DNA of 64,000 bases from Elusimicrobiales bacterium (GTDB lineage: Bacteria; Elusimicrobiota; Elusimicrobia; Elusimicrobiales; UBA9959): contig JBMFKQ010000002.1 in the NCBI GenBank assembly GCA_049972095.1, positions 1-64,000 of the forward strand, read 5' to 3'. Below are positions 18,001 through 21,000 of the stretch, one piece after another. The position numbers were made by a program. The number at the start of each line of letters is the position of its first letter. Position 1 is the stretch's first letter.

Positions 18001-21000
18001 ACTTTATTTTTACTGCTGATTATGTAGGTGTTGAGGGTAATAAAAACTATCTAAGTATGGCAAGTGAAATAGATATTTTAAAAGCCTTTCAGATGAGATT
18101 TGGTTATTCAACAAAAGATAATCCTGGTTTTTCAAGATTTGTGTTTGGGATGGGCATGACCTTTGATAGGTTTTTAACCAAGGAAAGTCTTGTAAAGGGC
18201 TTGAGAATGGATTATGCATATTTAGAACATAAATATTTTGGCTCTACACACAGGATTGGTTTTCAGATGATTTGGTAATTTAAGTATAGTTTTTAAAAAT
18301 TTGTATAATATCTTAAGAGGAGGTAAAATGAAAAGGATATTGTTGCTTTTAATTTTCAGTATAGGTGTTGTTGCTTATTCTCAAGAGGATGAAAAAAAAT
18401 TAAAAGAGCATGATTCAAAGGTTGAAGAGCTTAAAAAACAGAGAGAAAATCTAAGCCTTGAATACGAGATTGAGATGCAAAAGCAAAAGAATACCTTAAT
18501 TGGTATAGAGAAGGAGTATAATGAGCTTTCTATTAAAAATAAACTTATGATTGAGAAACTTAATATGGAGGTTGCAGAGCTTAAGGCGCAGCTAGAAAAA
18601 CTTTCTAATATGAATAAAGTTGCTGAGGAAAAAAATAAACAGGAGATTTCAAAACTTAACTTTGAGCTTAACAGATTAAAGCTCTTAAATGATATTGAAG
18701 AAGAGAAACTTAAAGCGGAGAAAAGAAAAATTAAAGAAGAGAAAGATAGAATGGATTTTGAGAAAGAAAGGATAAAACATGAGCTTTTTCTAAAAACAAA
18801 TGAGGTTGATAAACTAAAAGCAGAGCTTGAGCTTATATCAAAGAAAGAGGAGGTTAAAAGAATTGCCAAAAAAGAGCCAGTTTATTCAGATTTAGTTTTT
18901 AGGGATGGAAGTCTTGTTATATCTGATAGGAGAATACCTCTCAACGGTGTTATAACAATGAAGACTGCGGATTTTGTGGTAGATAGGATAAACTATTATA
19001 ATAACCAGAGCACTGCTCCAATATTTATAGTGATAGATAGATCCCCCGGAGGATCTGTAATGGCAGGATATAAAATTCTTAAAGCAATGGAGGCAAGTAT
19101 CTCTCCTGTTTATGTGGTTGTAAAATCATATGCTGCATCAATGGCTGCAACAATCACAACCCTTGCAAAAAAATCTTTTGTTTATCCAAATGCTATAATC
19201 CTTCATCATCAGATGAGAGCTATGACATGGGGTAATATGACACAGTTAAAAGAGCAGCTTGAGATGGCAAAAAAGTGGGAAAAAAGAGTAATGGGCCCTG
19301 TTGCAAAAAAAATAGGGATGGATATTGAAGAGTTTAGAAAGAAAATGTATGAACACAGCTCTGATGGTGATTGGGAAGAGTTTGGTGATGATGCTGTTAA
19401 TCTTAAGTGGGTAACTCAAAGCGTTGACAGTATAATTGAAGAGGGTATAGTTAGAGACCCTGATTACTATGAGGATAAAAAGTTTACTACAAATATCTTT
19501 GAGGAAAAGGTTGATGAAAAAGGGAAAAAATATGTTGAGCTACCAAGACTTGATCCCTTTGACTTTTATTTTCTCTACAATCCTGATGGATATTACAGAT
19601 ATAACTATTAAAGAAGATTTGCTTTTTCGTTGTGTTGTTTTGTAGATTTTGTGGAGGGGTATATGAAGAATGGGAGGTGGCTTTGAGCCAAGATACTCAT
19701 CAAAGGAGAGCTTTGAAAAGGATTTTCCTAAAAGTGATATAATTCCACAAAGTGTGAGATGTCCTGGATGTGGGCAGGTAATAGCTCTTAACAGAAAATC
19801 TCTATCCAATAAAAGTGCGGGCTGGTGTAGAAAATGTGTGAGAGCAGTTACTCTTTGAATAGGATAAAGGTCCTATATGTAGATATGACCTTTAGCTTTG
19901 TAATCTTTGAATTTACATCTTATAATTAAATTAGATGACTAAAGATAGATTGTTCTTTGATGGCATAGCTCATCAAACTTCAAGCTGGATTTTTATATTT
20001 CCTTTGAGGATTTAAAAGGGGCAAGCCCTTTAGGTAAAGGAGGGTATATGTTAAAACTTTTTGTTTATTCTGTTATATTTTTCTTGTCGGTTGAGGCAAA
20101 TGCTGACTCATATGACTCAATCAAATCAACCACATTTGAAAAGCTGTATAACCAAGCAGTAGAAAGGATAAAAAGCAAAACATCACAGATACCTTTGCCT
20201 GATGATAAAAAGAGGATCCTTGAGGCTGATAATAGATATTATCTCAAAATTACAGCAAAAGATAAATATGAAAGGACAAAACTGCTTGAATTAGGAGTTG
20301 ACATTTTTTCAATATCGGATTCTTATGTAGAAGGGACTATTCCTGGAGAACTTCTTGGCGGTATAGAGAAAGAGTTTTCAATTCTTGAAAGAAAACCACT
20401 TTCCTTATGGATTAGTGAAAACAAGGATTTTCCACCTCAGGATTCTGCATATCATAACTACAACGAAACATATCAGGCTCTTAAAGAGCTTTCTCAAAAA
20501 TATTCTGATATTGCATACCTTTTTTCTATAGGAAAAAGTTATGAAGGAAGGGATATATGGGCTTTGAGAATAAACACAACTCAAAAGGGGCTTGAGCAGA
20601 GCAAAAAACCCGGCATCCTTCTTGTTGGAAATCATCATGCAAGAGAGCATCTTACAAACGAAATGGTGCTTCTTTTTGCTGCTTATCTTTTGGACAATAG
20701 GGATTCTTATAGAGATTATATAGATAAGCTTGATATATACATTATACCGATGCTCAATCCTGATGGTGTAGAGTATGATATAAAAACTGGTGACTACAAA
20801 TGGTGGAGAAAGAATACAAATAAGCTTGATACAAGCTCTATTATTGGTGTGGATCTTAACAGAAATTATGATTTTGAATGGTGTAAATCAGGTTCATCAC
20901 ACTACCAGCAGTCAGATGTCTATTGTGGAAAATCTGTTTTTTCCGAGCCTGAAACAAAAGCCCTTAGAGACTTTCTTTTGCAGAGAAGAAATATAAAAAC

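What a model noticed while it worked through the whole genome (the two positions that open the first line are those of the whole stretch)
18328..19611. Exported ClpP: a signal-peptide, long coiled-coil ClpP-fold serine protease family
g107 (427 aa) is a ClpP-fold peptidase preceded by a Sec-type signal peptide and a single 150-residue helix, with the catalytic Ser/His/Asp kept. It belongs to a large unnamed family found in Elusimicrobiota, Verrucomicrobiota, Planctomycetota, Lentisphaeria, Deltaproteobacteria and Spirochaetota. It is thus a ClpP-type protease that works outside the cytoplasm, where no Clp ATPase exists; the coiled coil may replace the ATPase as gate or anchor.
Evidence so far: 3170 clusters at E<=1e-40 among 8000 scored; 553 confirmed stretches in GTDB species genomes, row limit reached, phyla as named in call 68. 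Hydrophobic N-terminus in 115 of 120 homologs and signal-peptide-like start in 71 of 77 ORFs from those loci. Ser271 and His293/294 in 48 of 48, Asp348 in 47 of 48. Model: helix 28-180, pLDDT 82; Foldseek top hits all ClpP, TM 0.85 by target, rmsd 2.4. No NCBIfam family reaches cut-off (ClpP, SppA, prohead protease all far below; call 77); only 27% to the genome's own ClpP. Paper searches found none.
(Added by a program. Inside this text positions count along the whole contig: contig position 1 is position 1 of the stretch shown here. "Call 12" and the like, gene names such as g00115 and contig names such as C1 are that model's own, and its searches are not shown. The text may have been shortened before it was handed on; [...] marks where a part breaks off. 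The agent that wrote the report below was given it as the finding of a first reader that could run no searches.)

Follow-up and report, generated by a model that had tools for sequence, protein, structure and literature searches.

The report
Exported ClpP protease with helical tube
This gene encodes a relative of the cell's internal protein shredder ClpP that appears to be exported from the cytoplasm; instead of an ATP-driven partner it carries a long repeating helix that probably packs side by side into a built-in entry tube, a design we could not find described.

Summary
Confirmed and extended. Window 18328-19611 encodes a 427-aa protein: signal-peptide-like start, 140-residue helix, ClpP domain, conserved C-terminal tail. 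In 150 family clusters (50% identity) Ser271 and His294 are invariant; Asp348 is kept in 119 of 146.

New here:
(1) The helix is not a heptad coiled coil. It is a 25-residue repeat (0-9 copies) with two opposite hydrophobic faces whose residues covary, as in the wall of an alpha-helical barrel; a geometric model fits six or more helices, not three or four.
(2) Four copies of domain plus tail model as a ClpP-type ring arc (0.70, best control 0.00), with the tail reaching beside the neighbour's active site; covariation agrees.
(3) The ATPase docking pocket and the Arg ring sensor are replaced.

Best reading: an ATP-independent, self-compartmentalised periplasmic protease with its own entry tube. 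Export, activity, ring size and substrates are untested. The gene is accessory (11 of 201 Elusimicrobiota; about 2% of three other phyla sampled). Nested clades occur in a jumbo phage and, without signal peptide, probably in giant viruses. Ten paper searches found no description. The scan earlier noted a different, small exported ClpP-fold family in phage 121Q.

The parts
18318..18324 (+). Shine-Dalgarno AGGAGGT, favours the ATG at 18328 over the TTG at 18301
   Evidence: sequence
18328..18381 (+). Sec-type signal peptide, residues 1-18 (basic start, hydrophobic core, A-Y-S then polar mature start); no lipobox
   Evidence: heuristic only; no SignalP available
18445..18858 (+). Long helix, residues 40-177: 25-residue repeats at 40, 65, 90 and 115 plus a degenerate fifth; two opposite hydrophobic faces; inferred wall of an alpha-helical tube
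18859..18921 (+). Linker and beta-hairpin, residues 178-198, in place of ClpP's first helix and N-terminal gate; covaries with strand 366-372 at the rim that holds the ATPase pocket
18922..19443 (+). ClpP-fold peptidase domain, residues 199-372; Ser271 (19138-19140), His294 (19207-19209), Asp348 (19369-19371); extra conserved His293; Gly347 in place of the sensor Arg
19444..19611 (+). C-terminal tail, residues 373-427, with conserved core 393-424; modelled contact with the neighbouring subunit beside its active site and with the neighbouring tail; stop codon included

Best explanation
The protein is exported by Sec and released by signal peptidase as a soluble periplasmic protein (inferred). 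Subunits join into a ClpP-type ring through the usual helix-to-sheet interface, and the C-terminal tails add a second ring of contacts next to each active site (modelled, with covariation). Two rings probably meet through the handle region although the Arg sensor is lost (covariation only). No Clp ATPase can dock, since none is in that compartment and the docking pocket is remodelled (sequence shown). Instead the repeat helices of all subunits pack in parallel, staggered by about two turns, into a tilted single-walled tube over the ring, lengthened in 25-residue steps (inferred from pattern, covariation and geometry). The tube admits peptides and unfolded chains but not folded proteins, so the Ser-His-Asp sites degrade damaged envelope proteins or imported peptides without ATP (function inferred; substrates unknown). 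The tail may steady the triad or act as a self-cleaved lock, as in Bacillus subtilis SppA.
For: Triad: Ser 150 of 150, His 150 of 150, Asp 119 of 146. Export signature: 131 of 150 against 3 of 23 ClpPs. Four copies of residues 178-427 score 0.70 with best control 0.00; that mark was reached by 20 of 30 solved pairs and 1 of 23 single chains; runs agree in at least 86% of contacts, partner pLDDT at least 81. The ClpP-like part of that pass may be memory of solved ClpP rings, but the tail contacts (407-412 onto 238, 240, 268, 270, 290, 292, 350, 417-422) lie outside the ClpP-aligned region. In covariation on 486 sequences, 11 of the top 110 pairs join the two modelled interface sides, 3.9 expected, including R407-D420 (rank 7), R407-Y422 (15) and R238-D409 (57). 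Repeat: lag 25 is the strongest autocorrelation (z 19); 423 copies in 142 proteins against 6 in shuffles. Pooled hydrophobic periodicity is 5.3 at 2.2-2.4 and 1.4 at 3.4-3.7, the reverse of 19 helix-like control segments (2.6 and 5.1). The top repeat coupling joins opposite faces (positions 7-12, z 7.3 and 7.0; also 7-16 and 14-23), ranks 2, 9 and 3 of 300 in three subsets. Only rings of six or more helices satisfy these pairs. ATPase pocket residues named in 10.1101/638692 become R, H/N/Q, V, S/A/G, V and Y.
Against: Nothing is measured: no export, activity or oligomer data. The signal call is a loose heuristic. The helix was never modelled as an oligomer. The covariation alignments overlap those given to the predictors and contain related sequences, so they are not independent. 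The 7-12 pair ranks only 71 of 300 in the repeat next to the domain, and its z in subsets (2.3-4.0) overlaps the maxima of column-shuffled controls (2.7-3.4). The geometric model has no clash term and cannot choose between 6 and 24 helices. The sensor Arg that couples ring pairing to activity in ClpP is Gly in 142 of 146, and 17 members have Asn for the catalytic Asp. Signal-less and phage members have 0-1 recognisable repeats, so the tube is not needed by every member. No gene context points to a substrate.
Confidence: 0.55

Rival explanations
1. Exported ClpP-type ring peptidase whose long helices are spacers or tethers (flexible arms or small bundles binding a partner, the cell wall or a membrane protein), not a closed tube. 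In Verrucomicrobiales the partner could be the two-membrane-helix protein encoded just upstream.
For: Repeat number varies 0-9 like a ruler; a two-TM protein with a periplasmic domain lies beside the gene in 51 of 244 loci, 50 of them upstream on the same strand; the repeat covariation is modest in subsets.
Against: Two opposite hydrophobic faces and face-to-face covariation do not fit a free arm or a 2-4 helix bundle. The upstream gene is confined to loci of one order where named, and has no match in this genome.
Confidence: 0.25
2. Self-processing zymogen or assembly protease related to phage head-maturation proteases: the helix and tail are scaffold or pro-pieces cut off during maturation of the enzyme or of a larger particle.
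For: The best NCBIfam score is the ClpP-related head maturation protease (57 bits, ClpP models at most 54) and PHROG head-protease families match. B. subtilis SppA cleaves its own C-terminal piece (PMC7568657 passages), and its structure 4kwb aligns out to residue 425. Viral members exist.
Against: All scores are far below cut-off (57 of 120). No capsid-like neighbour recurs in 244 loci. The modelled tail contacts avoid the strands 242-244 and 296-298 that flank ClpP's substrate groove (groove position recalled).
Confidence: 0.12
3. A cytoplasmic ClpP paralogue with a mis-called signal peptide that works with the cell's ClpP or ClpC, or a mainly structural protein of low activity.
For: A signal-less clade exists; the signal call is heuristic; sensor Arg lost; tandem paralogue pairs in two genomes recall ClpP1/ClpP2.
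Against: 131 of 150 have a hydrophobic start followed mostly by a cleavage-type motif and polar mature region (104 strict); both genes of each tandem pair have one; the ATPase pocket is remodelled; Ser and His are invariant.
Confidence: 0.08

Closest known systems
ClpP (MEROPS S14, Pfam PF00574, TIGR00493)
   Same: Fold (TM 0.85, rmsd 2.4; VIA Z 21.5, rmsd 2.2, 166 aligned), Ser-His-Asp order and spacing, handle strand and helix, modelled head-to-tail ring interface.
   Different: Signal peptide; 25-residue repeat helix in place of the N-terminal gate and first helix; ATPase pocket remodelled; sensor Arg is Gly; extra His293; inserted Arg238; 55-residue tail; accessory gene beside a normal clpP; far below ClpP cut-offs.
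SppA signal peptide peptidase (S49, TIGR00706), especially B. subtilis SppA, PDB 4kwb
   Same: ClpP-like fold (Z 16.1, rmsd 3.1, 182 aligned, model range 183-425), works outside the cytoplasm without ATP, ring-shaped (octamer), C-terminal piece regulates the active site (PMC7568657 passages; PDB title).
   Different: SppA uses a Ser-Lys dyad (recalled) and is membrane-anchored; this family keeps His and Asp, has a cleavable signal and a long repeat helix; 25 bits against a cut-off of 155; the genome has a separate SppA-like gene (C8:756-1772).
NfeD long form, N-terminal ClpP-class protease (PF25145, PDB 2deo)
   Same: Exported ClpP-class domain (Z 13.1, rmsd 3.2, 148 aligned).
   Different: Below cut-off (18.6 of 40); no membrane domain, no C-terminal NfeD domain, no stomatin neighbour seen.
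Phage ClpP-related head maturation protease (NF045542, PHROG 94 and 2976)
   Same: Best profile score among curated families; N- and C-terminal extensions on a ClpP core.
   Different: 57 of 120 bits; exported; no recurring capsid neighbour; found in cellular genomes in variable, housekeeping surroundings.
Single-layer alpha-helical barrels (flotillin and other SPFH cages; by analogy the ATP-independent proteasome caps PA28 and Bpa, recalled)
   Same: Non-heptad repeating helices packed side by side into a wall (flotillin, PMC11260169 passages); a helical cap on a protease ring.
   Different: No sequence relation; here the wall is fused to the protease, is predicted left-handed with a 25/7 repeat, and is far narrower than the 44-helix flotillin cage.
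Small exported ClpP-fold protein of phage 121Q (gene 473; earlier scan notes)
   Same: Signal peptide on a ClpP-like fold.
   Different: 202 aa, no repeat helix, no tail, no BLAST similarity to this protein: a separate family.

Membership tests
ClpP (S14) | ClpP fold | tested here: met
   Foldseek TM 0.85, rmsd 2.4; Pfam PF00574 over cut-off
ClpP (S14) | Ser-His-Asp triad | tested here: met
   Ser 150 of 150, His 150 of 150, Asp 119 of 146; all three present in this protein
ClpP (S14) | Curated ClpP model cut-off | tested here: not met
   TIGR00493 39.9 of 308.6; PRK00277 44.6 of 249
ClpP (S14) | Cytoplasmic location, no signal peptide | tested here: not met
   Hydrophobic start in 131 of 150 against 3 of 23 ClpPs; heuristic, location not measured
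ClpP (S14) | Hydrophobic pocket for ATPase IGF loops (Ile28/29, Leu49, Tyr63, Phe83, Ile90/91, Leu115) | tested here: not met
   R202 (120 of 150), H/N/Q222 (112), V235 (120), S/A/G256 (114), V264 (136), Y286 (110)
ClpP (S14) | Asp170-Arg171 ring sensor | tested here: not met
   Gly in 142 of 146; Arg in 19 of 19 ClpPs with a residue there; role
ClpP (S14) | Head-to-tail ring assembly | tested here: met
   Model only: 0.70 against best control 0.00, may reflect likeness to solved ClpP; covariation 11 of 110 against 3.9
ClpP (S14) | Seven-fold double ring (14 subunits) | tested here: inconclusive
   Handle pairs 296-304, 295-303, 298-307, 308-315, 307-318 suggest ring-to-ring pairing; at most four copies could be folded
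ClpP (S14) | Peptidase activity | not testable with these tools
   Needs an assay
SppA (S49) | Ser-Lys dyad and model cut-off | tested here: not met
   His and Asp kept; TIGR00706 25.3 of 155.45; dyad definition recalled
SppA (S49) | N-terminal membrane anchor | tested here: not met
   Long hydrophobic stretch in 6 of 129; heuristic
SppA (S49) | C-terminus bound in the active site and self-cleaved | tested here: inconclusive
   Tail modelled beside the neighbour's site; cleavage not testable
NfeD protease domain | Model cut-off and membrane plus C-terminal domains | tested here: not met
   PF25145 18.6 of 40; no such domains
Phage head maturation protease | Model cut-off and place in a head gene module | tested here: not met
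   57.3 of 120; no recurring head genes among neighbours within 3.5 kb in 244 loci
Heptad coiled coil | One hydrophobic stripe, period about 3.5 | tested here: not met
   Lags 3 and 4 below shuffles; second-order moment 3.06 against first-order 1.44; control

The most novel reading that the evidence does not exclude
A ClpP that has become a one-gene, ATP-free degradation machine of the cell envelope: a protease ring carrying its own alpha-helical entry tube about 12-15 nm long, whose length is set in 25-residue modules, locked by a ring of C-terminal tails beside the active sites, spread sideways among Elusimicrobiota, PVC bacteria and spirochaetes and borrowed by jumbo phages and (without signal peptide) giant viruses.
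Probability: 0.5. Interest if true: 0.87.

Novelty: new variant of a known kind. Interest (0 to 1): 0.76.

Why it matters
ClpP is the textbook ATP-dependent cytoplasmic protease and is dangerous when ungated, which is how ADEP antibiotics kill. A natural family that works where there is no ATP, has lost the ATPase pocket and ring sensor, and seems to gate itself with a fused tube would show a new way to control a compartmental protease. It would add a periplasmic quality-control machine to poorly studied phyla. It also offers a natural, length-modular alpha-helical nanotube. Databases call these proteins 'ATP-dependent Clp protease subunit', which is probably wrong for thousands of records. 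Cultured carriers exist (Haloferula, Luteolibacter, Persicirhabdus, Verrucomicrobium, Geminisphaera), so the idea can be tested directly.

Tried and rejected
Gene context: no neighbour is shared across phyla. The 80-locus clustering gave only lineage synteny and shadow frames; (244 loci, neighbours within 3.5 kb) found one recurring upstream gene in 51 loci, Verrucomicrobiales where named. Its fold search gave nothing clear (best Z 5.6; YceB Z 5.5, rmsd 6.0; no Pfam over cut-off).

Expression: no RNA holder listed, which is no evidence either way.

No family member covering 80% of the query among 232 phage records and 91 plasmid records with a match; the rows shown are distant ClpP-type matches of 25-32% identity.

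A metagenome scan with the signal-less alignment returned one such locus among 80; a GTDB scan returned bacterial loci only, so the giant-virus origin rests on one neighbour gene.

Heptad coiled coil, trimeric stalk and antiparallel hairpin were considered: no heptad signal, three or four helices fail, no clear anti-diagonal.

Type IX secretion was considered because a PorQ-like gene lies upstream (25 of 220 bits); it occurs in only 5 of 81 loci.

Promoter scan at chance level (13 against 14.3).

The tree (FastTree, 182 columns, 119 rows, 3 dropped as duplicates or short, one SppA as root) supports clades only; no donor or order of events is claimed.

In the MAFFT alignment positions 233 and 235 sit one residue off; the register was used because covariation supports it (203-234, 206-237, 207-240).

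Ten paper searches found no description of the family. The library lacks most subscription journals and no supplements were read, so a mention in a table may have been missed.

Full report
Observation. The ORF is real: 18328-19611, plus strand, 427 aa, with a strong ribosome site. Residues 196-340 pass Pfam CLP_protease, the best 60 solved-sequence matches shown are all ClpP, and the AlphaFold2 model (144 sequences, pLDDT 87.8) has one helix 40-177 followed by a ClpP fold. No NCBIfam family reaches its cut-off; the best is the phage head maturation protease at 57 of 120 bits. Identity to the genome's own ClpP is 27%. Nearest relatives are named Elusimicrobiales or Elusimicrobiota.

Family and range. 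There are 3183 relatives among 8000 candidates, 199 clusters at 50% identity with E up to 1e-30 and at least 603 GTDB stretches. The gene is accessory: 11 of 201 genomes in the own phylum, 5 of 201 Verrucomicrobiota, 4 of 201 Planctomycetota, 4 of 151 Spirochaetota and 1 of 151 in the phylum of a Polyangiaceae carrier, each count including the centre genome (phylum names from the centre locus titles). It is commoner close by: 9 of 12 genomes of the same family have a second, long-frame ClpP match, always beside a normal ClpP. On a tree the family forms one clade on a long stem (support 0.81 with a distant root), apart from ClpP and the jumbo-phage ClpPs.

Export. A hydrophobic start is seen in 131 of 150 representatives (104 with cleavage motif and polar mature start), 115 of 120 top hits, and 3 of 23 ClpPs; half of all genome ORFs pass the loose form, so this is a family-level argument only. 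Lipobox-like motifs (12 of 129) and long anchors (6 of 129) are rare. Of the 19 exceptions, 6 belong to a true signal-less clade; most of the rest look truncated or mis-started.

Active site. Ser271 and His294 are invariant in 150; position 348 is Asp 119, Asn 17, Glu 7 of 146. The ring sensor Arg171, which couples ring pairing to catalysis (passages of PMC12036999 and 10.1101/2019.12.11.873281), is Gly in 142 of 146. Of six pocket residues that bind ATPase loops and ADEP (passage of 10.1101/638692), five change in kind: Ile29 to Arg, Leu49 to His/Asn/Gln, Tyr63 to Val, Phe83 to Ser/Ala/Gly, Leu115 to Tyr. Arg202 covaries with Glu371 (rank 14), which suggests a salt bridge across the pocket. 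The same paper says Tyr63Ala opens ClpP; whether Val does so here is a lead only.

Ring and tail. Four copies of residues 178-427 score 0.70 with best control 0.00 (mark reached by 20 of 30 solved pairs and 1 of 23 single chains; at least 86% contact agreement; pLDDT at least 81). The interface is ClpP's helices-onto-strands contact, which may be memory, plus a contact new to this family: tail 407-412 packs on the neighbour's 238, 240, 268, 270, 290, 292 and 350, next to Ser271 and His294, and on the neighbour's tail. A strict tail motif is found in 103 of 150; Asp412 is 139 of 144. Mean-field covariation (486 sequences, 245 effective) puts 11 of its top 110 pairs across the modelled interface, 3.9 expected. 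Handle pairs 296-304, 295-303, 298-307, 308-315 and 307-318 are too far apart for one extended chain and fit antiparallel pairing of two rings (inference; ClpP's antiparallel handle strands). B. subtilis SppA, an octameric ATP-free ring with a self-cleaved C-terminal piece (passages of PMC7568657; Nam and Paetzel 2013 seen only as a title), is the nearest parallel for the tail.

The long helix. It is a 25-residue repeat: lag 25 is the strongest autocorrelation and lags 3 and 4 fall below shuffles; an iterated profile finds 423 copies in 142 proteins against 6 in shuffles, 221 spacings of exactly 25, and 0-9 copies per protein. Positions 3, 7, 14, 18, 21, 25 form one face and 5, 9, 12, 16, 19, 23 the opposite face, with charged residues between. 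Nineteen helix-like segments of the same genome show the ordinary pattern instead. Covariation on 889 two-repeat windows ranks 7-12 first and also shows 7-16 and 14-23; these lie on opposite faces of one helix, so they point to parallel neighbours staggered by 5-9 residues. Asn7 with Glu12 occurs 65 times against 36 expected; the pair ranks 2, 9 and 3 of 300 in three subsets but 71 in the repeat nearest the domain. A Crick-type model satisfies the pairs with 6-24 helices tilted 42-57 degrees, not with 3 or 4; seven helices give a lumen of about 22 A and 22 A of height per repeat (crude, no clash term). Flotillin shows that non-heptad helices build single-layer barrels (passages of PMC11260169). 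The linker 183-191 covaries with strand 366-372, so the tube would stand on the rim where an ATPase normally docks (position recalled).

Mechanism. Shown: sequence features, conservation, repeat pattern. Modelled: fold, ring arc, tail contacts. Inferred: export, double ring, tube, ATP-free degradation of unfolded chains or peptides. Unknown: ring number, substrate, role of the tail. I put 0.55 on the whole reading, 0.25 on an exported ring with tethering arms, 0.12 on a self-processing zymogen and 0.08 on a cytoplasmic or structural protein.

Offshoots. A short member with signal peptide lies on a 207-kb phage contig beside dUTPase and DNA polymerase III alpha genes, with 7 close relatives. 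A signal-less clade (support 0.95) with low-complexity starts has one locus followed by an intronless synaptobrevin gene, which suggests giant viruses; a 2026 survey lists ClpP among giant-virus genes without saying which kind (passage of PMC13691094). Two Verrucomicrobiota genomes have tandem pairs.

Prior knowledge. Ten searches found no description (listings and abstract starts seen). The 'secreted ClpP-like' mention in PMC12419801 is a PDZ-fused protease (passage). Two earlier scan notes describe an exported ClpP-fold protein of phage 121Q; it is 202 aa and shows no similarity to this protein. Verdict: a real, apparently unnamed family; it works like a compartmental ClpP or SppA but fails membership of both; new variant of a known kind, interest 0.76.

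Noticed in passing
window 8029-12278: tig-clpP-lon cluster with no clpX between clpP and lon; no match over the ClpX cut-off anywhere in this 96.5% complete genome, while ClpC-like (C6:46201-48720) and ClpB-like (C7:278-2845) genes are present.
   Followed up: partly
window 9286-9897: The genome's ordinary ClpP has Asn where the catalytic Asp should be; 10 of 19 ordinary ClpPs aligned (mostly Elusimicrobia) share this.
   Followed up: no
window 19670-19858: Unlisted 62-aa ORF with two CxxC motifs (zinc-ribbon-like), 61-69% identical to ORFs in four relatives, three of them seen just downstream of the protease gene; its 5' end is out of frame with the relatives' start here, possibly an assembly error.
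   Followed up: partly
window 17274-18278: Upstream gene with a weak PorQ-type barrel match (25 of 220 bits); beside the protease gene in 5 of 81 loci, all close relatives.
   Followed up: partly
L079:5003-5860 and 50 other loci: Unnamed two-TM protein with a 200-residue outer domain, directly upstream and co-oriented in Verrucomicrobiales; confident model (pLDDT 87.7), only weak YceB/DUF1439-like leads.
   Followed up: partly
L082:38-2214: Signal-less family member followed by an intronless synaptobrevin-type SNARE gene on a 34% GC contig, suggesting a giant virus.
   Followed up: partly
L081:7812-8699: Short exported member (295 aa) on a 207-kb phage contig, next to dUTPase and a split DNA polymerase III alpha gene.
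   Followed up: partly
L286:5371-7950 and L287:4864-7652: Tandem pairs of diverged family genes, both with signal-like starts, in two Verrucomicrobiota genomes; possible mixed rings.
   Followed up: no
window 20048-21334 and 12290-14071: Two other exported-looking proteins nearby: an M14 zinc carboxypeptidase and a DUF885 protein; the carboxypeptidase follows the gene in four close relatives.
   Followed up: no
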